DNA from: Deinococcus radiodurans R1 = ATCC 13939 = DSM 20539
GTDB lineage: Bacteria; Deinococcota; Deinococci; Deinococcales; Deinococcaceae
Direction: 5' to 3'
Length of the DNA: 32,000 nucleotides
Assembly (NCBI RefSeq): GCF_000008565.1
Contig: NC_001264.1
Location: 90,533 to 122,532, forward strand
Made by a program: the position numbers and the translations under genes. The notes beneath the pieces are model-generated. The model made no database searches and had not been told where the DNA came from. It saw only the letters and a list, made by a program, of their open reading frames with translations. Below are positions 4,112-8,183 of the stretch, one piece after another. Each line of letters begins with the position of its first letter. Position 1 is the stretch's first letter.

Positions 4112-4879
4112 ATGACGGCACCCGAGAACACCACCCCGCCCCCCGCTCCTGCACCCAGCAATGCCCCGGCTTTCCAGCCGACGGAAACGCTGGCCCTCGC
4201 CCGCGAGAACGCCCGCCTCGCGGCGGAGTTGCAGACGGTCACGACCGAACGCGACCAGCTCAAGGGGCAGGTCACTGACCTGGAGGTCAAAGTGAACAGC
4301 AGCAAAGAAGCCGAGTTGCAGCAGCAGCTCGACGCCATGAAGGCCGAGAACGAGACGCTGAAGACCAAAGTCAGCACGTTCGAGGAACGCGACACCACTG
4401 CCGAGCGCACCAAGCTGCTCGACGGCAAGGTCAGCGACGTGCAGCTCGCCCTGCGAGTGCTCGACCCTGAAAAGCACCTGAACGCCGACGGCACGTTGAA
4501 GACCGACGCGCTCTACACCGATTTCCCGTCACTCGCCCCGGCGGGCATCACCACGCCCACCGCGCCCGACGGCGGCGGCGGCAGCCAGCGCACGGCGGCG
4601 GGCGCCACGTCGCTCGACCGCGCCGTTCAGGGCGGATCACTGGCCGACATCAACGCGGCCTTCGACGCGGCGTCACGCCCGCCAAGTAAGCCTCCGGCCC
4701 TAAGCCCCCTCTCTCCGAGGTGTCACCGTGACCCTACTCAGCAATCCCAAAATCTGGTCGGCCCGCCTGCTGGCCCATCTGGACAAGACCTTCGTCTACG
4801 GCGCGGCCTTCACCAATCGCAACTACGAAGGCGAAATCAAGGACGCGGGCACCAGCGTCCGCATCCTCCAGGTCGGTGA
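4112..4879 (+). CDS. head scaffolding protein; the ORF as written reads through into the capsid gene, probable true end at TAA 4687-4689 after a 1-nt indel near 4665-4675
   Basis: RBS GGAGGA 4102-4107 precedes ATG 4112. The protein has an Ala/Pro-rich N-terminus and a long coiled-coil region (LAAELQTVTTERDQLKGQVTDLEVKV...QQQLDAMKAENETLKTKV), and sits immediately upstream of the capsid gene. The last ~65 aa are Arg/Pro-rich off-frame-like sequence overlapping the capsid RBS and start. The alternative frame gives ...DAAVTPAK-stop. Confidence 0.6.
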   Translation: MTAPENTTPPPAPAPSNAPAFQPTETLALARENARLAAELQTVTTERDQLKGQVTDLEVKVNSSKEAELQQQLDAMKAENETLKTKVSTFEERDTTAERTKLLDGKVSDVQLALRVLDPEKHLNADGTLKTDALYTDFPSLAPAGITTPTAPDGGGGSQRTAAGATSLDRAVQGGSLADINAAFDAASRPPSKPPALSPLSPRCHRDPTQQSQNLVGPPAGPSGQDLRLRRGLHQSQLRRRNQGRGHQRPHPPGR

Positions 4880-5582
4880 CGTGAGCATCAGCGACTACAC
4901 CGGCACCCTGAACGACCCCGAAGGGCTCAACGACGCCGCGCTCGAACTGGTCATCGACCAGAAGAAATACTTCAACTTCGTCGTGGACGATGTGGAAGCG
5001 CAGCAGAGCATCATCCGCCTGGTGGACGAAGGCTCCAAGCGTGCTGCTCAGGCCATGAGCGACGTGCGTGACCTTTACGTGGCGGGTTTCCACAGCGCCG
5101 TCGATGCCGCCAACCTCGTCGGCACCGACGCCACGCCCGTCGTGGTCGGTTTCGCAGGCGGGCAGACCAAGCCCTACGACGCTTTCCTCGACCTGACTCA
5201 GAAGCTCGACGAGGCCAACATCCCCACCGTGGATCGCCGCGTGGTGCTGCCGCCCTGGTTCATTCGCGCCCTGAAGGCGCAGTTCGGGGACCGGGGCAGC
5301 GGCCTGGGCGACAAGATCGCCCTCGACGGTATGGCCGGGCAGCTCGACGGCGTGACCATCTACCAGTCCAATAACGTGCCCAACGTGGGCGGCGAGAAGT
5401 ACAAGATCATGATGGGCAAGGACTACATCACCTTCGCCGACCAGATCGTGAAGACTGAAACCTACCGCCCCGAGCGCAAGTTCGGCACCGGCGTCAAGGG
5501 CCTGCACGTCTACGGCGCCAAGAACCTTCAGCCCAAGGGCTTCGCCGTCGGCACCTTCAACAAGGGCCAGATCAGCAAGTAA
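4728..5582 (+). CDS. major capsid protein
   Basis: RBS GAGGTG precedes GTG 4728. The 284-aa ORF follows the scaffold gene. Its N-terminus LSNPKIWSARLLAHLDKTFVYGAAFTNRNYEGEIKDAGTSVRILQVGDV resembles small P22-coat-like capsid families (from memory). A strong intrinsic terminator follows. Confidence 0.8.
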   Translation: MTLLSNPKIWSARLLAHLDKTFVYGAAFTNRNYEGEIKDAGTSVRILQVGDVSISDYTGTLNDPEGLNDAALELVIDQKKYFNFVVDDVEAQQSIIRLVDEGSKRAAQAMSDVRDLYVAGFHSAVDAANLVGTDATPVVVGFAGGQTKPYDAFLDLTQKLDEANIPTVDRRVVLPPWFIRALKAQFGDRGSGLGDKIALDGMAGQLDGVTIYQSNNVPNVGGEKYKIMMGKDYITFADQIVKTETYRPERKFGTGVKGLHVYGAKNLQPKGFAVGTFNKGQISK

Positions 5583-5602
5583 TTTTCCCCCTGGACCGAC
5601 TG

Positions 5603-5628
5603 AGCCTCCCTGACCGGGGGGCTTTTTT
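5603..5628 (+). terminator. rho-independent terminator after the capsid gene
   Basis: AGCCTCCC 5603-5610 pairs with GGGGGGCT 5616-5623 (8 bp, one G-U), loop TGACC. The last stem base starts a run of six T (5623-5628). Confidence 0.75.
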
Positions 5629-5645
5629 CGTTCCCTGAGGTGCTC

Positions 5646-5897
5646 ATGAGCGATGAGAAACAAGACAGCGCCTGGTTCCGCCACCGCGACAGCGGGCAGG
5701 TGTTCGAGGCGTCGGGCCGCTTCCTGCCGGACGCCCGCAAGAACCGGGAGCTGGAAGAAACCATCAACCCGGAAACGGCGGTCAAGATGGAACTCGACAA
5801 GCGCGAAATCAAGTACCAGCCCAACACCGGCTACAAGAAGCTCCAGGCGCTGTTGACTGAAGCCCTCGAAGCCGAAGCGGCGCAGAAGCCCGACTGA
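5646..5897 (+). CDS. hypothetical phage protein
   Basis: RBS GAGGTG precedes ATG 5646. The 83-aa charged protein has a stop overlapping the next start (TGATG at 5895-5899). Confidence 0.55.
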   Translation: MSDEKQDSAWFRHRDSGQVFEASGRFLPDARKNRELEETINPETAVKMELDKREIKYQPNTGYKKLQALLTEALEAEAAQKPD

Positions 5898-6262
5898 TGG
5901 CCGGCCAAACCAATCCGCGTGACGCCCCTGCGTGCATCGCCCTCGCCCAGCGGCAGGTCGGAGACGCGGGCGGCTGGACGCCGGAGCAGTGGCAGGCGCA
6001 GCTCACTGACGACGGCGCCGTGCGCCCGGTAGAGGGCGTGCAGCAGATGTTCTACCGCCCCTACAAAACGGCGATCGCCTACCTGCTGCGCCCCCGCGTG
6101 ACCGCTCGTGTTGAGGGCGACGTGTCCGAGCAGTACGGCGACCTGACCGCGACAGTGGAAAACCTGCGCGAGCTGGATGCCGAGTGGGTAGCGGGACGCA
6201 TCCCACCCGAGGCGGTCAGCGCCGACACCTGGGACAGCACCATCACCTGGGGCGGCTGGTAA
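5897..6262 (+). CDS. head-tail connector/adaptor candidate
   Basis: 121-aa ORF translationally coupled on both sides (TGATG upstream, TAATG downstream). The call rests on its position between the capsid and head-closure genes. Confidence 0.55.
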   Translation: MAGQTNPRDAPACIALAQRQVGDAGGWTPEQWQAQLTDDGAVRPVEGVQQMFYRPYKTAIAYLLRPRVTARVEGDVSEQYGDLTATVENLRELDAEWVAGRIPPEAVSADTWDSTITWGGW

Positions 6263-6582
6263 TGCTGCTTCCTCAGTTCCGTGACGAGGCCGTGACCCTG
6301 CTGGTGCAGGTGCCTGGGCAGAAGGGGCGGCTGGGCGGCGAGGTCAGTCCACCGACCTACACGCCTGGTGAGACGCACACGGCGCTGGTGACGAATCTGG
6401 GTGCAGAGCAGGCCGTGAAGCTGGGGCTGACGGCCACCGGGCAGCGCTGGCGGGTGCGCCTGCCTGCGGGCGTCCTGGTCGTGCCGGGGGACCGCCTGCG
6501 GTTCCGGGGCCGGGAATGGAAGGCCGCGCTGGTCGAAGTGCGGACAAGCTACACCAAGGTGATTGCGGAGGAAATCCGCTAA
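6262..6582 (+). CDS. head closure / head-tail joining protein candidate
   Basis: ATG 6262 overlaps the upstream TAA. Size is ~106 aa. The pattern ...GETHTALVTNLGAEQAV...RWRVRLPAGVLVVPGDRLRFRGREWKAALVEV resembles head-tail joining proteins of the SPP1 gp16 / HK97 gp9 type. Confidence 0.6.
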   Translation: MLLPQFRDEAVTLLVQVPGQKGRLGGEVSPPTYTPGETHTALVTNLGAEQAVKLGLTATGQRWRVRLPAGVLVVPGDRLRFRGREWKAALVEVRTSYTKVIAEEIR

Positions 6583-6585
6583 AAT
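6580..6585 (+). promoter_or_regulatory. -10-like hexamer TAAAAT, 7 nt upstream of the first base of the tRNA-like RNA
   Basis: TAAAAT at 6580-6585 overlaps the TAA stop of the upstream gene. A6593, the first acceptor-stem base, lies 7 nt downstream. No convincing -35 was seen. Confidence 0.3.
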
Positions 6586-6592
6586 CCTTGTG

Positions 6593-6696
6593 ACGCGGTT
6601 GGGTGAGAGGCTGAAACCTATAGCCGTTATGAGTCATGGGAGTGAGGAACGGCTCAATACTCCACATGACCATCCGTTCGAATCGGATGCCGCGTG
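6593..6696 (+). ncRNA. tRNA-like structured RNA (non-canonical; no anticodon arm, pseudoknot-compatible core)
   Basis: Acceptor stem: ACGCGGT 6593-6599 pairs with GCCGCGT 6689-6695 (6 WC + 1 G-U). T6600 is U8-like. D-arm 6602-6618 is GGTG/AGAGGCTGA/AACC with GG in the loop. T-arm is ATCCG 6672-6676, loop TTCGAAT 6677-6683, CGGAT 6684-6688, abutting the acceptor 3' strand. G6696 is the discriminator and no CCA is encoded. The central 52 nt form two helices: 6622-6628 with 6648-6654 (7 bp) and 6633-6643 with 6659-6670 (11 bp, A6664 bulged). Confidence 0.5.
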
Positions 6697-6698
6697 TC

Positions 6699-6720
6699 CT
6701 GCCCAGAGATGGGCAGTTTT
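6699..6720 (+). terminator. rho-independent terminator directly after the tRNA-like RNA
   Basis: CTGCCCA 6699-6705 pairs with TGGGCAG 6710-6716 (7 bp), tetraloop GAGA, then TTTTCCATTT. Confidence 0.6.
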
Positions 6721-6739
6721 CCATTTGGAGAGTGAACTA

Positions 6740-7114
6740 GTGCCAGCCGACTTCAGCAGTGTTCGAGAAGCGGGAATAGACGTGCTTCAGCAGGAACTCG
6801 CCAATCGGGCGCAGCGCCTGCGAAATGGCATTGTCGAGGAACTCTCCCGCCCCGGCACAGGCCGCACCTACCGCACGGGCCACCGCACCGCGCCCCACAG
6901 CACCCACCAGGCCAGTGCCCCCGGCGAGTCTCCAGCGGTCAATACGGGCCGACTCCGGCAGTCCATCACCGCGTTGCGGATCAGCCCGATGAACTGGCGG
7001 GTGGGGACAAACGTGGACTACGCCCTGCACCTGGAGTTCGGCACACGGCGCATGGCCCCCCGCCCGTTCCTGCGCCCGGCAGCAGACAAAGAGCGTGAGC
7101 GTGGTGCGCCGTGA
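6740..7114 (+). CDS. HK97 gp10-family phage protein (tail/neck component)
   Basis: RBS GGAGAG 6727-6732 precedes GTG 6740. The signature HQASAPGESPAVNTGRLRQSI...VGTNVDYALHLEFGTRRMAPRPFLRPA is typical of the HK97 gp10 family, and ~124 aa is the usual size. The tracked ORF start at 6563 spans the RNA element and is probably not coding. Confidence 0.8.
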   Translation: MPADFSSVREAGIDVLQQELANRAQRLRNGIVEELSRPGTGRTYRTGHRTAPHSTHQASAPGESPAVNTGRLRQSITALRISPMNWRVGTNVDYALHLEFGTRRMAPRPFLRPAADKERERGAP

Positions 7115-7446
7115 GCGGGCCTTACGACGTGCTGGCTGATGCTTATGCGGCGCTGCTGGAACTGACCGAACGGGTCTACCTGCCGGACCAGTCGTTACCT
7201 GACGACGAAACTCCCCTCATCCGCCTGGACCTCATCGGCTGGACCGACCGCGCCCGCTACGGCTCGGCGTCCGCCCTCACCCGCATTCAGGTCAGTGTCT
7301 GGGCGAACAGCCTGGACGCGGCCATCAGCCTGCACCAGCAGGCCAGGGAGCGGCTCGTGGGCCTCCGGTACAGACCGGACGGCGGCGGGCAACTCAGCGA
7401 CCCCGACACCAAGCAGTTCGGCTGGAGAGCCGACTACCGGAGATAA
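7111..7446 (+). CDS. tail completion/terminator-like protein (DUF3168-like, by position)
   Basis: GTG 7111 overlaps the upstream stop (GTGA). The 111-aa ORF lies between the gp10-like and major tail genes. Confidence 0.5.
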   Translation: MSGPYDVLADAYAALLELTERVYLPDQSLPDDETPLIRLDLIGWTDRARYGSASALTRIQVSVWANSLDAAISLHQQARERLVGLRYRPDGGGQLSDPDTKQFGWRADYRR

Positions 7447-7448
7447 CC

Positions 7449-7935
7449 ATGTCTGACTTCCATATTGGAGACAACAACGCCGTCCGCTTCGCCATCGTGC
7501 CCAAAGGCACGTCCGCGCGTCCGGCCACCGCCGCGTTTTTCTCGCTTCCCAACGTGACCACCAGCGACGCCCCCATCTCGGCGTCGAGCGTCACCAAGAA
7601 GTACTACAAGACCAACGGCGGCACGGCGACTCGTGGCACCGGCGCCACGGTGACGTTCACCGTCAGCGGGGACCTGCCCCAGGACAAGGCGCTGCGCGAA
7701 CCCGTCTACCGCCTCCGCAAGGCGATCCTGAACGGGGACCAGATTTACCTGGAGCGGGCGTTCGACGAGGAGGCCCCCGCTGCCGAATGGGAAGGCGTTC
7801 GCCTCCCTGACGAACGCGGCGCTGCCCAGCCCCTCGGACAACGCCACCACCTACAGCTTCACGGCGGGCATCTCCGGCGAGCTGAAGGGGCCGCATCAGG
7901 CCGCTCCCGACGCCCCCAGCGCCCCCGGCGCCTGA
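7449..7935 (+). pseudogene. major tail protein, frame broken near 7790-7800
   Basis: RBS GGAGA precedes ATG 7449. The N-terminal 115 aa look genuine up to ...AAEWEG, then the frame turns Arg/Pro/His-rich. The +1 frame reads FASLTNAALPSPSDNATTYSFTAGISGELKGPHQAAPDAPSAPGA-stop (TGA 7933-7935). The position ahead of the chaperone pair supports the call. Confidence 0.6.
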
Positions 7936-7937
7936 AC

Positions 7938-8183
7938 GTGCCTCTCTTCGCCCTGGCCCGCCGCAATGGCGAGCCAGTGGCCCTGATCACGGGTGCCCAC
8001 CGCGATGGTGGGCGCCTGTATGCGGGGCTGCTGGTTGTGCAGGCCGGCTTGACCCGGCGGCGCTGGACATTTCAAGACACCGAAACAAAAGAAAAGCTCG
8101 TTTTGGAGCTACCCAAGGACGCGCTGCACCTCAAGCGAGGGGCAAACACAGCGCGGGTCTGGCTGGAGGTTTATGACCGCTGA
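7938..8183 (+). CDS. hypothetical small tail-module protein
   Basis: This is the in-frame distal part of tracked ORF 7449-8183 with protein-like sequence (VPLFALARRNGEPVALITGAHRDGGRLYAGLLVVQ...ARVWLEVYDR). GTG 7938 lacks an obvious RBS, so the start is uncertain. Confidence 0.4.
   Translation: MPLFALARRNGEPVALITGAHRDGGRLYAGLLVVQAGLTRRRWTFQDTETKEKLVLELPKDALHLKRGANTARVWLEVYDR

What the first reader, a model, noticed from the sequence alone, without database searches (positions are those of the whole stretch)
6580..6726. Free-standing tRNA-like RNA gene with two interlocking helices in place of the anticodon arm, wedged into the head-tail joining genes
Most neighbouring gene junctions in this module overlap by 1-4 nt, but here there is a ~155-nt lower-GC gap. 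Almost every base of it can be assigned to RNA structure.

- Promoter: a TAAAAT -10 box at 6580-6585 lies 7 nt before A6593.
- Acceptor stem: 7 bp, 6593-6599 with 6689-6695.
- D-arm: a U8-like T, then 6602-6618 with GG in the loop.
- T-arm: 5-bp stem with the canonical 7-nt loop TTCGAAT (6672-6688), stacked directly on the acceptor 3' strand.
- 3' end: discriminator G6696, no encoded CCA.
- Terminator: 7-bp GAGA-tetraloop hairpin plus T-run (6699-6720).

I tested every register of the central 52 nt and found no 5-bp stem with a 7-nt loop, so this is not a decodable tRNA. AGCCGTT 6622-6628 pairs with AACGGCT 6648-6654, and 6633-6643 pairs with 6659-6670 (11 bp, one bulge). The 3' strand of the first helix lies inside the loop of the second, which is H-type pseudoknot topology with three 4-nt connectors.

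An acceptor/T/D mimic with a pseudoknot core recalls tmRNA and plant-virus tRNA-like structures, but the element is only ~104 nt and has no ORF tag. Possible roles are speculative: a decoy for tRNA-targeting host defences (anticodon nucleases), a CCA-adding, RNase P or EF-Tu ligand, or a primer.
Basis: partly seen in the sequence, partly recalled or inferred. Interest (0 to 1): 0.85.

Follow-up and report, generated by a model that had tools for sequence, protein, structure and literature searches.

The report
Anticodon-less tRNA mimic gene in prophage
A 104-base RNA gene inserted between two prophage structural genes of Deinococcus radiodurans folds like a transfer RNA whose anticodon arm is replaced by a pseudoknot, and it belongs to a widespread phage RNA family (including E. 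coli phages) that I found in no database annotation, Rfam family or searched paper and whose function is unknown.

Summary
Window 6593-6696 (+) has a 7-bp acceptor stem, a class-II-type D arm, a T arm with loop UUCGAAU and the tRNA tertiary-contact bases, but no anticodon arm. A terminator hairpin follows it. No sigma-70-type promoter was detected.

The window is the D. radiodurans chromosome II prophage. In related Deinococcus prophages the two flanking genes abut, so the element is a ~160-bp insertion, not a coding extension.

Pattern scans of IMG/VR found about 80 viral loci (61 distinct sequences) with the same architecture. Many lie inside or beside phage tRNA arrays. Another member lies in E. 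coli phage mEp390, where nothing is annotated.

Both central helices covary:
- The pseudoknot helix has 16 distinct perfect 6-bp versions (combined p about 1e-11).
- All six of its pairs show compensatory changes.

ARAGORN (default) calls none of the members tested, and Rfam 15 gives only borderline tRNA hits for two of them. Position 73 is mostly A, and CCA is often encoded.

Best reading: a non-decoding, phage-borne tRNA mimic derived from a class II tRNA, matured like a tRNA and acting through host tRNA-binding proteins. A decoy or competitor role is my leading guess, and it is unproven.

Novelty: a new variant of a known kind. Interest: high.

The parts
6567..6572 (+). GGAGGA, left copy of a short direct repeat at the insertion boundary (still inside the upstream ORF)
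   Evidence: Compared with the ancestral junction ...GAGGAGGTGAAGTAGcGTG in L006 and L008. The right copy, GGAGA, lies at 6727-6731.
6580..6585 (+). TAAAAT, overlapping the upstream stop codon TAA.
   Evidence: Matches TATAAT at 5 of 6 positions, but the promoter scan found no sigma-70-type site in 5500-7600. Unsupported.
6593..6696 (+). The tRNA-like RNA gene: acceptor 5' strand through discriminator G6696
   Evidence: MFE z = -3.2. Family covariance model R1 scores it 73.9 bits. It is identical in three other D. radiodurans records.
6593..6599 (+). Acceptor stem, 5' strand (pairs with 6689-6695)
   Evidence: All 8 acceptor columns covary in alignment A4.
6600..6618 (+). U8, G9 and a class-II-type D arm (3-bp stem GGU/ACC; loop with A14, G15, G18, G19, A21)
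   Evidence: The 18-mer is identical to the D arm of phage tRNA-Ser(GCU) and tRNA-Tyr(GUA) genes.
6622..6628 (+). S1 5' strand. It occupies the position of the anticodon-stem 5' strand and pairs with 6648-6654.
   Evidence: Duplex -10.8 kcal/mol, shuffle p = 0.006. In the family, 6 of 6 pairs covary. There are 16 distinct perfect 6-bp versions.
6629..6632 (+). Linker L1 (AUGA) between S1 and S2. Family consensus is about 4 nt, often U-A-N-A.
6633..6643 (+). S2 5' strand (pairs with 6659-6670, with one bulged A at 6664)
   Evidence: Predicted in the MFE fold. 9 of 12 pair columns covary in the family.
6644..6655 (+). Apical 3-bp stem GAG/CUC (6644-6646 with 6653-6655) closing the 6-nt loop GAACGG.
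   Evidence: The apical stem is 100% paired and 2 of its 3 pairs covary.
6656..6658 (+). AAU bulge. It was part of the search pattern (WAT), so its presence in retrieved members is by construction; mEp390, found by BLAST, also has AAU.
6659..6670 (+). S2 3' strand
6671..6688 (+). C at the position of the Levitt partner C48, then the T arm (5-bp stem, loop UUCGAAU)
   Evidence: The T stem is 100% paired and 4 of its 5 pairs covary.
6689..6696 (+). Acceptor stem 3' strand and discriminator G6696. No CCA is encoded; UCC follows.
   Evidence: In the family, position 73 is A in 37 of 54 members and CCA is encoded in 10.
6699..6720 (+). Intrinsic-terminator-like hairpin (7 bp, GAGA loop) plus a T-run
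   Evidence: Family members in L079 and in E. coli phage mEp390 are also followed by a hairpin, with a T-run in mEp390.
6727..6742 (+). GGAGAG (ribosome-binding site and right copy of the direct repeat), a remnant of the ancestral gene end, and the GTG start (6740) of the gp10-like gene
   Evidence: The RefSeq CDS WP_162177629.1 starts here.

Best explanation
Window 6593-6696 is a gene for a small, stable, non-decoding tRNA mimic. It belongs to a widespread family carried by tailed phages and prophages. I found that family in no database annotation, Rfam family or searched paper.

The RNA keeps everything that makes a tRNA recognisable from the top:
- a 7-bp acceptor stem stacked on a 5-bp T stem;
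- the UUCGAAU T loop;
- a class-II D arm with G18 and G19 for the elbow;
- U8-A14 and G15-C48.

The anticodon hairpin is gone. The strand that would be the 5' half of the anticodon stem (S1) instead pairs with the apical loop of a long hairpin (S2 plus a 3-bp cap). That hairpin sits where a class II variable arm sits. The result is a pseudoknot.

The family descends from class II tRNAs. Some members still carry what I recall to be the tRNA-Tyr anticodon-stem sequence, GCAGA/UCUGC.

In D. radiodurans the gene arrived as a ~160-bp cassette (leader, RNA, terminator), inserted exactly between two translationally coupled head-tail genes.

Inferred, not shown: the RNA is cut out by RNase P at its 5' end. 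Its 3' end is trimmed, with CCA added where not encoded. It then acts by occupying a host protein that reads tRNA shape rather than the anticodon.

My leading guess is a decoy or competitor for a tRNA-targeting host factor, such as a defence nuclease or toxin that acts on the anticodon stem, acceptor end or class II body. The runner-up is that a synthetase that ignores the anticodon (Leu or Ser type) charges it, making it a non-ribosomal aminoacyl carrier or a sink for EF-Tu or the synthetase.
For: Anatomy of the window element:
- The D arm is identical to that of real phage class II tRNAs.
- Covariance model R1 scores family members at 74-86 bits and class II tRNAs next, at 30-53 bits.

Insertion:
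- The element is absent from L006, L008, L009-L012 and L013, whose flanking genes abut.
- It is identical in the D. radiodurans records found.
- Its GC content is lower than its surroundings.

Family:
- Four IMG/VR loci came from D-arm-anchored patterns.
- 76 more came from a D-arm-free pattern. Together these give 61 distinct sequences.
- Further members are in E. coli phage mEp390 and in two E. coli prophages.

Structure under selection:
- In a 5-sequence alignment, 95% of cells are paired against 34-45% in the slid controls. 26 of 35 pairs show compensatory change.
- In a 25-sequence alignment registered on sequence anchors: S1 has 6 of 6 pairs covarying (92% paired), the apical stem is 100% paired, S2 has 9 of 12 pairs covarying, and the T stem is 100% paired.
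- An alignment-free shuffle test of S1 gives Fisher p = 1.3e-11 over 36 distinct helices.

Treated as a tRNA gene by phage genomes:
- Members lie inside or beside tRNA arrays in L053, L062, L082, L111, L070, L138 and L076.
- Position 73 is A in 37 of 54 members, and CCA is encoded in 10.
- Terminator hairpins follow the gene in the window, in L079 and in mEp390.

Not decodable:
- ARAGORN in default mode finds nothing.
- Its intron-mode calls are mutually inconsistent.

Background for the decoy idea: host defences that destroy specific tRNAs, and phage tRNAs that counter them, are documented. Examples are PtuAB acting on tRNA-Tyr (10.1101/2023.03.15.532788) and P2 OLD cutting the anticodon stem (PMC12445682).
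Against: - No expression, processing, modification or binding data exist for any member. I could not reach the D. radiodurans sRNA catalogue.
- The function is inference only.
- The decoy idea has no conserved partner gene to support it. Neighbouring genes differ between members.
- Pseudoknot geometry is awkward. A 4-nt L1 has to bridge an 11-14-bp helix, so S1 and S2 may not both be fully formed at once, or a sharp kink at the AAU bulge may be needed.
- In the window the outer two S1 pairs compete with the conserved apical stem.
- The alignments used for pair counting were partly hand-registered. The S1a register was chosen by best fit.
- In some members (subgroup A, e.g. L105) the acceptor stem is irregular and is extended by a further GGGG/CCCC helix, which does not look like a free tRNA end.
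- The window member has G73 and no CCA, whereas most of the family has A73.
Confidence: 0.7

Rival explanations
1. It is charged with an amino acid and works as a non-decoding aminoacyl carrier or sink. A synthetase that ignores the anticodon (LeuRS or SerRS type, which recognise the class II body and position 73) would aminoacylate it. It would then titrate the synthetase or EF-Tu, or donate the amino acid to a non-ribosomal transferase.
For: - The acceptor, T and D core is intact, and position 73 is A in 37 of 54 members, with CCA encoded in 10.
- The D arm is of class II type, and a long arm sits at the variable-arm position.
- Members sit inside tRNA arrays.
- That LeuRS and SerRS do not need the anticodon is established knowledge recalled from memory, not tested here.
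Against: - There are no aminoacylation data.
- Position 73 varies within the family (A, G, U and C all occur), which argues against a single synthetase identity.
- Some members lack a clean free acceptor end.
- No transferase gene is linked to the element.
Confidence: 0.2
2. It is a genuine decoding tRNA whose anticodon loop carries a short intervening sequence, removed by an unknown bacterial or phage activity.
For: - ARAGORN in intron mode calls four members as intron-containing tRNAs: window Pro(AGG), L017 Val(GAC), L033 Phe(GAA) and L053 Cys(ACA).
- The L033 sequence right after S1a reads UUGAAAC, a well-formed tRNA-Phe anticodon loop (sequence).
- Rfam's tRNA model just passes its threshold for L033 and L141.
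Against: - The predicted anticodons, intron positions and intron lengths disagree between homologues.
- L053 and L062, which differ at only three positions in the element, differ inside the apical loop.
- The supposed intron pairs, with covariation, to the region downstream of S1b (the S2 helix). After excision that region would be a 17-nt unpaired variable region with no hairpin.
- No short protein-spliced tRNA introns are known in bacteria (from memory).
- The Rfam tRNA hits skip the anticodon arm entirely.
Confidence: 0.05
3. It is mainly a cis-acting punctuation element. A tRNA-shaped RNase P/RNase Z site plus a terminator would split the late transcript, or set the ratio of head to tail gene expression. 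The released RNA would be a by-product.
For: - In the window and in E. coli prophages it lies inside late operons, between genes on the same strand, and is followed by a terminator.
- No promoter was detected in the window.
Against: - Any tRNA would serve that purpose. The elaborate pseudoknot core, conserved by covariation in dozens of lineages, would not be needed.
- Genomic position is not conserved. Members sit in tRNA arrays, near replication and recombination genes, after lysis genes, or between head-tail genes.
- The closest Deinococcus relatives do without it.
Confidence: 0.1
4. It is a decaying tRNA pseudogene, or a Deinococcus small non-coding repeat or MITE that happens to fold.
For: - It is an insertion flanked by a short direct repeat, GGAGGA/GGAGA.
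- The ends of the RNA are inverted repeats (the acceptor stem).
Against: - Only one copy was found in the 412-kb replicon and in the whole plasmid collection, and one in the window.
- Homologues in unrelated phages keep all the helices through compensatory changes, which decay would not do.
Confidence: 0.03

Closest known systems
Class II tRNAs (Ser, Leu and bacterial Tyr), including phage-encoded ones
   Same: - The acceptor stem, U8, the D arm (an 18-mer identical to phage tRNA-Ser and tRNA-Tyr genes), the T arm and the G15-C48 pair are all shared.
- A long arm sits at the variable-arm position.
- Position 73 is mostly A, and CCA is often encoded.
- Members lie in phage tRNA arrays.
- These tRNAs are the next-best hits of the family model.
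   Different: - There is no anticodon hairpin. The 3' strand of the anticodon stem is supplied by the loop of the long arm, which makes a pseudoknot.
- ARAGORN in default mode does not call the members.
- Most members fall below Rfam's tRNA threshold.
Phage T4 stable RNAs rnaC and rnaD (species 1 and 2)
   Same: They are small stable RNAs of unknown function encoded in a phage tRNA cluster. rnaC has a canonical T arm near its 3' end and gives a weak hit to family model R1 (21.6 bits, E = 0.006).
   Different: They are larger (139 and 119 nt). I saw no recognisable D arm, and they lack the S1/S2 pseudoknot and the AAUAC motif. This is a functional analogy at most, not the same family.
Bacterial Y RNAs YrlA and Yrn1 (tRNA mimics bound by Ro60/Rsr, first found in D. 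radiodurans)
   Same: They are non-coding RNAs with a T arm, a D arm and a Levitt pair that mimic tRNA. They occur in bacteria and phages, and some are cut by RNase P and receive CCA (PMC4201824).
   Different: - YrlA is circularly permuted, in the order T arm, acceptor-like stem-loop, D arm. Its 5' and 3' ends form the Ro60-binding stem.
- YrlA genes lie next to rsr.
- Here the order is the normal tRNA order and the ends form the acceptor stem. No Rfam family of any kind matched, and I did not confirm that Rfam 15 holds a YrlA model.
- No rsr gene is annotated in the 16 kb around the element.
tmRNA tRNA-like domain
   Same: It combines a tRNA-like acceptor and T arm with pseudoknots and has no anticodon.
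   Different: tmRNA is much larger (about 300 nt or more), carries a tag reading frame and lacks a true D arm. ARAGORN's tmRNA mode finds nothing here.
Plant-virus 3' tRNA-like structures (for example the TYMV valine-accepting TLS)
   Same: They are viral tRNA mimics that use a pseudoknot.
   Different: In those structures the pseudoknot builds the acceptor stem and an anticodon-like loop is retained. They are cis elements of RNA genomes. Here the acceptor stem is an ordinary helix and the pseudoknot replaces the anticodon and variable region.
Phage 'morons' (independent transcription units inserted between conserved phage genes)
   Same: The window copy is an insertion between two genes that abut in relatives. 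It brings its own terminator and restores a ribosome-binding site for the downstream gene. The mEp390 copy has an extended -10-like TGTGATAAT upstream and a strong terminator downstream.
   Different: The cargo is an RNA gene rather than a protein gene. A promoter is not demonstrated in the window.

Membership tests
Canonical tRNA (Rfam RF00005 / ARAGORN) | 7-bp acceptor stem stacked on a 5-bp T stem with a 7-nt T loop (U54 U55 C56 R57 A58) | tested here: met
   6593-6599 with 6689-6695, and 6672-6688 with loop UUCGAAU. Both stems covary.
Canonical tRNA (Rfam RF00005 / ARAGORN) | D arm with U8, A14, R15, G18, G19 and A21, plus the Levitt partner Y48 | tested here: met
   6600-6618 and C6671. 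The 18-mer is identical to that of real phage tRNA-Ser and tRNA-Tyr genes.
Canonical tRNA (Rfam RF00005 / ARAGORN) | Anticodon arm: 5-bp stem closing a 7-nt loop with U33 and an anticodon | tested here: not met
   - ARAGORN in default mode finds 0 genes.
- Rfam shows no tRNA hit with E up to 10 in the window.
- The Rfam hits for L033 and L141 skip the arm.
- ARAGORN intron-mode calls are inconsistent between homologues.
tmRNA | Tag-peptide reading frame with a resume codon, and a tRNA-like domain without a D stem | tested here: not met
   ARAGORN's tmRNA mode is negative even at lowered thresholds. The RNA is only 104 nt and has a full D arm.
YrlA/Yrn Y RNA | Permuted order (T arm, acceptor-like stem-loop, D arm) with the 5' and 3' ends forming a Ro60-binding stem | tested here: not met
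   The order here is acceptor, D arm, core, T arm, acceptor. The YrlA topology is taken from PMC4201824. No Rfam family of any kind matched.
YrlA/Yrn Y RNA | Gene lies next to rsr (Ro60), and the RNA is bound by Rsr | not tested
   I ran no TROVE or rsr search. The 16 kb annotated around the element holds only phage genes. Binding cannot be tested with these tools.
Intron-containing tRNA | After removal of an intron at a consistent position, a standard cloverleaf with a conserved anticodon remains | tested here: not met
   ARAGORN -i gives Pro(AGG) i(37,16), Val(GAC) i(37,18), Phe(GAA) i(43,13) and Cys(ACA) i(43,12) for four homologues. The supposed intron pairs, with covariation, to the downstream region.
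Coding N-terminal extension of the gp10-like protein | The open frame 6563-6739 is conserved at the amino-acid level in homologues | tested here: not met
   Homologous genes start at the position equivalent to 6740, directly after the upstream stop codon. RefSeq also starts the CDS there.
Deinococcus small non-coding repeat / MITE | Many dispersed copies in the genome | tested here: inconclusive
   There is a single copy in the 412-kb chromosome II record, with no other hit in the plasmid collection, and a single copy in the window. Chromosome I could not be searched.
Phage moron | An insertion between genes that are adjacent in related phages, with its own terminator and its own promoter | tested here: inconclusive
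   The insertion is shown and so is the terminator. A promoter was not detected.
Proposed new family: class-II-derived, anticodon-less tRNA mimic with a pseudoknot core | In order: acceptor stem; class II D arm; S1 5' strand; a ~4-nt linker; the S2 hairpin with a 3-bp cap and a 6-7-nt loop complementary to the S1 strand; a WAU bulge followed by AC; C48; and a T arm with loop UUCGAAU | tested here: met
   The window matches every element and scores 73.9 bits with family model R1. R1 was built from an alignment that includes the window. Family-wide covariation is shown.

The most novel reading that the evidence does not exclude
Tailed phages of very different hosts, from Deinococcus to E. coli, carry a previously unrecognised class of anticodon-less tRNA mimics. 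These RNAs would be matured by the host tRNA machinery. They would then neutralise a tRNA-directed host activity: an immune nuclease or toxin that reads the tRNA body, the anticodon stem or the acceptor end. Alternatively they would be aminoacylated for a non-ribosomal purpose. Either way this would be a new RNA-based counter-defence or host-takeover principle, and mEp390 gives it a ready E. coli model.
Probability: 0.3. Interest if true: 0.9.

Novelty: new variant of a known kind. Interest (0 to 1): 0.8.

Why it matters
Phage tRNA genes are now understood partly as weapons against host defences that destroy tRNAs. A conserved phage RNA that keeps every tRNA recognition surface except the anticodon does not fit the codon-supply explanation. 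It points instead to a role as a ligand for some tRNA-binding protein.

The family is widespread, with about 80 viral contigs found by one deliberately strict pattern. It is under clear structural selection. It is missed by ARAGORN in default mode, by Rfam 15 except for two borderline tRNA hits, and by the GenBank and RefSeq annotations examined here.

It also occurs in a cultured E. coli lambdoid phage, mEp390. Knock-outs, Northern blots, probing, pull-downs and charging assays are therefore immediately feasible.

For RNA structure, it is a natural case of a class II tRNA scaffold re-wired so that the variable-arm loop completes the anticodon stem.

Tried and rejected
- **Coding extension or small ORFs in the gap** (6563-7114, 6636-6740, minus-strand 6344-6724): rejected because the whole segment is absent from relatives.
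- **Known RNA families:** Rfam in E-value mode on the window and on three homologues, and in gathering mode on 12 member loci, gave only borderline tRNA hits for L033 and L141.
- **tmRNA:** negative.
- **Y RNA (YrlA, Yrn1, Yrn2):** rejected on topology and locus.
- **MITE or repeat:** no second copy found.
- **BLAST against cultured phages:** the window element and members L017, L033, L053, L079, L082 and L070 gave nothing useful. Only the L074 subgroup hit, matching mEp390 and two E. coli genomes.
- **Metagenome scan:** my D-arm-anchored pattern returned only a duplicate of L062.
- **Conserved neighbouring protein:** the search found only generic phage genes (AAA_24, DUF669, SSB-like, lysis, terminase).
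- **Literature:** searches for a description of such an RNA, and for D. radiodurans sRNA maps, found nothing applicable. The Tsai 2015 sRNA paper is not held.
- **Codon-like triplets in linker L1** (UAG, UAA, UAU, UAC, UGA): noticed, but not consistent across subgroups, so I dropped the idea of a specifier or codon mimic.
Full report
**1. What is at 6580-6726**

- Positions 6593-6599 (ACGCGGU) pair with 6689-6695 (GCCGCGU).
- U6600 and G6601 follow.
- 6602-6618 is a D arm with a 3-bp stem. Its loop places A14, G15, G18, G19 and A21 canonically.
- C6671 precedes a 5-bp T stem with loop UUCGAAU (6672-6688).
- G6696 is the discriminator.
- A 7-bp hairpin with a GAGA loop and a T-run follows at 6699-6720. 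The terminator scan reports it.

The minimum-free-energy fold of 6593-6696 is -41.8 kcal/mol, with z = -3.2 against dinucleotide shuffles. It shows the acceptor stem, the T arm and a 14-bp central hairpin.

The gap has a GC content of 0.50-0.56 in a region of about 0.68.

Other detectors found nothing:
- ARAGORN finds no tRNA or tmRNA anywhere in the window.
- Rfam 15 finds nothing credible.
- The promoter scan finds no sigma-70-type site.

The TAAAAT proposed as a -10 box therefore remains a guess.

**2. Where the window comes from, and the insertion**

The element and its flanks are 100% identical to Deinococcus radiodurans chromosome II (NZ_OV024759.1, 388421-388591). There they lie between two hypothetical phage genes in a terminase, capsid and tail module.

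Pfam weakly supports HK97-gp10-like for the downstream gene and gp17-like tail completion for the next one.

Relatives of the downstream protein were fetched together with their DNA:
- a Deinococcus MAG at 92% identity (L006);
- metagenomic Deinococcus-type prophages at 89, 84 and 75% identity (L008, L009-L012, L013).

In all of them the upstream stop and the downstream start are 0-1 nt apart. Two further D. radiodurans assemblies carry the element unchanged.

So the element is a lineage-specific insertion of about 160 bp. GTG at 6740 is the true start of the downstream gene, and the open frame through the gap is not coding.

The junctions show a short direct repeat, GGAGGA at 6567-6572 and GGAGA at 6727-6731. 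The old gene end, GTGAACTAGTG, is still recognisable downstream of the insert.

**3. The element has relatives**

An exact-match scan of IMG/VR with the D-arm 18-mer returned 20 loci.
- Most are ordinary tRNA-Ser(GCU) and tRNA-Tyr(GUA) genes. This shows that the D arm is of the class II type.
- Two of them, L017 and L033, instead had the window's architecture.

Gapped patterns added L053 and L062. The single metagenome scan returned only a duplicate.

All four lineages fold into the same shape on their own although their central sequences differ.

A pattern that avoided the D arm (GTG, 10-11 nt, CWATAC, 7-14 nt, C, 4 nt, GTTCGAATC) returned 84 loci. About 14 were expected by chance, by my own rough estimate. 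Nearly all are members with diverse class II D arms.

Across all scans there are 61 distinct sequences, a few of which are false positives or truncated.

BLAST then found the L074 subgroup in E. coli phage mEp390 (NC_019721, 36452-36578) and in two E. coli prophages. In each case nothing is annotated under the match.

The mEp390 copy has an A-U pair where the search pattern demanded G-C. The strict pattern therefore under-counts the family.

**4. Structure under selection**

In a hand-registered alignment of the first five sequences:
- 95% of cells pair, against 34-45% when partners are slid;
- 26 of 35 pairs show changes on both sides.

In a 25-sequence alignment the columns were fixed by sequence anchors, except for the register of the S1 5' strand. 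The results were:

| Helix | Pairs with changes on both sides | Cells paired |
|---|---|---|
| S1 (pseudoknot) | 6 of 6 | 92% |
| Apical 3-bp stem | 2 of 3 | 100% |
| S2 | 9 of 12 | 81% (no gaps allowed for its bulges) |
| T stem | 4 of 5 | 100% |

In S1, single columns show up to five pair types.

S1 was also tested without any alignment. For each sequence I took the longest Watson-Crick run between the 22 nt upstream of S2 and the interior of the apical loop, and compared it with shuffles.
- 16 distinct perfect 6-bp helices occur, for example CAUGAC/GUCAUG, CACUGG/CCAGUG and ACUAUG/CAUAGU.
- The combined p is 1.3e-11 over 36 distinct helices (for the first four).

One refinement applies. The family consensus is a 6-bp S1 made with the hairpin loop, plus a 3-bp cap stem.

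**5. It is handled like a tRNA gene but cannot decode**

Members lie inside or next to phage tRNA arrays:
- between tRNA-Arg and tRNA-Tyr in L053 and L062;
- within a 24-tRNA array in L082;
- within the L111 array;
- abutting tRNA-Gly in L070;
- 39 nt from tRNA-Thr in L138.

Position 73 is A in 37 of 54 members, and CCA is encoded in 10, including the E. coli ones. Hairpins follow the gene in the window, in L079 and in mEp390, with a clear T-run in the window and mepP390's counterpart in mEp390.

The nearest things to the family model are class II tRNAs (30-53 bits against 74-86 for members). L053, L107 and L141 carry GCAGA/UCUGC as S1. From memory, that is the anticodon stem of bacterial tRNA-Tyr.

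No member tested is called by ARAGORN in default mode. In intron mode four members are called with different amino acids, odd A34 anticodons and different intron positions. The supposed intron is one strand of the covarying S2 helix.

Rfam's tRNA model reaches its threshold only for L033 and L141, and only by skipping the anticodon arm.

**6. What it is not**

- **Not tmRNA**.
- **Not a Y RNA.** YrlA is circularly permuted and linked to rsr (PMC4201824).
- **Not a repeat element, as far as I could search**.
- **Not T4 rnaC or rnaD.** rnaC is a loose analogue: a tRNA-cluster RNA of unknown function with a T arm, scoring 21.6 bits with the family model.

I found no paper describing the family. 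This is absence of evidence in an incomplete library, not proof that it is undescribed.

**7. How it probably works**

*Shown:*
- The conserved parts are exactly the surfaces read by RNase P, the CCA-adding enzyme, T-loop and D-loop modification enzymes, EF-Tu and the anticodon-independent synthetases.
- The decoding end is replaced by a compact, conserved pseudoknot.

*Inferred:*
- The RNA is released from phage transcripts like a tRNA and accumulates as a stable L-shaped molecule.
- It acts by binding a host protein that recognises the tRNA body.

I rank a decoy or competitor role first. Host defences that destroy particular tRNAs are common, and phages answer them with tRNA genes. A mimic with no anticodon loop would be immune to anticodon-loop nucleases, yet it would still offer an anticodon-stem-like helix, a class II body and an acceptor end.

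A charged, non-decoding carrier or sink is second.

No linked protein gene gives a clue. Geometry is an open problem: a 4-nt linker must span an 11-14-bp helix. That implies a sharp bend at the AAU bulge or only partial formation of the helices.

**8. Verdict**

The element is a member of a widespread family of phage tRNA mimics that appears to be unannotated. I classify it as a new variant of a known kind (tRNA-like non-coding RNAs). It is of high interest because the family is large, clearly selected and experimentally accessible in E. coli.

Noticed in passing
window 1442, 1791, 4672, 7797, 12655: The window differs from the DRR11 assembly of D. radiodurans chromosome II (NZ_OV024759.1) only by single- or double-base indels. 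The one at 7797 fuses two annotated genes into the 244-aa ORF 7449-8183. These could be sequencing errors in an older assembly, or real frameshifts in a decaying prophage. None lies in the element.
   Followed up: partly
window 5602-5624 (+): A strong terminator-like hairpin (9 bp plus a T-run) lies directly after the major capsid gene (4728-5582). It is a second intrinsic-terminator-like signal inside the same structural gene block.
   Followed up: no
window 6567-6572 and 6727-6731: A short direct repeat, GGAGGA/GGAGA, brackets the ~160-bp insertion. The insert supplies the new stop codon of the upstream gene. A remnant of the old gene end, GTGAACTAG, survives just before the downstream start. 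This could be a target-site duplication or recombination at microhomology.
   Followed up: partly
L072:3973-4100, L073:8636-8762, L074:8034-8160, L149:3001-3127 (mEp390): One subgroup, which includes the E. coli phage copies, carries an extra hairpin inserted in the D loop after the GG (for example GGAG-GAAA-CUCC). This makes the RNA about 127 nt long.
   Followed up: no
L079:5755-5885 and relatives (L075, L105, L132, L140): In another subgroup the acceptor stem is continued by a further helix (GGGGGG...CCCC) beyond an internal loop. In some members the first acceptor pairs are mismatched. These copies may not be processed to a free tRNA-like end.
   Followed up: no
L149:2960-3200 (phage mEp390) and L150 (E. 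coli EC17CM13 prophage): The E. coli copies sit between the lysis genes and the next late genes: terminase in the E. coli EC17CM13 prophage, a glycosyltransferase gene in mEp390. An extended -10-like TGTGATAAT precedes them, and an 8-bp hairpin plus T7 follows. Nothing is annotated there in GenBank or RefSeq.
   Followed up: partly
L035:2030-2116: Between tRNA-Ser(CGA) and tRNA-Leu(UAA) in a viral contig lies another odd tRNA-like sequence. It has the same D-arm 18-mer and an acceptor-like stem, but a non-canonical T-like hairpin (loop AAAGGAG). It scores only 20 bits with the family model. It may be a different degenerate tRNA-like element.
   Followed up: no
L068:2909-3047 (phage T4 rnaC): T4 species 1 RNA has a canonical T arm (CCGGG-UUCGAAU-CCCGG) near its 3' end. 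It gives a weak hit to the family model (21.6 bits). Its function is still listed only as 'small, stable RNA'.
   Followed up: partly
family linker L1 (window 6629-6632): The 3-6-nt linker after the S1 5' strand often begins with UAG, UAA, UAU, UAC or UGA and ends in A(G). The pattern resembles Tyr or stop codons, but it is not consistent across subgroups.
   Followed up: partly
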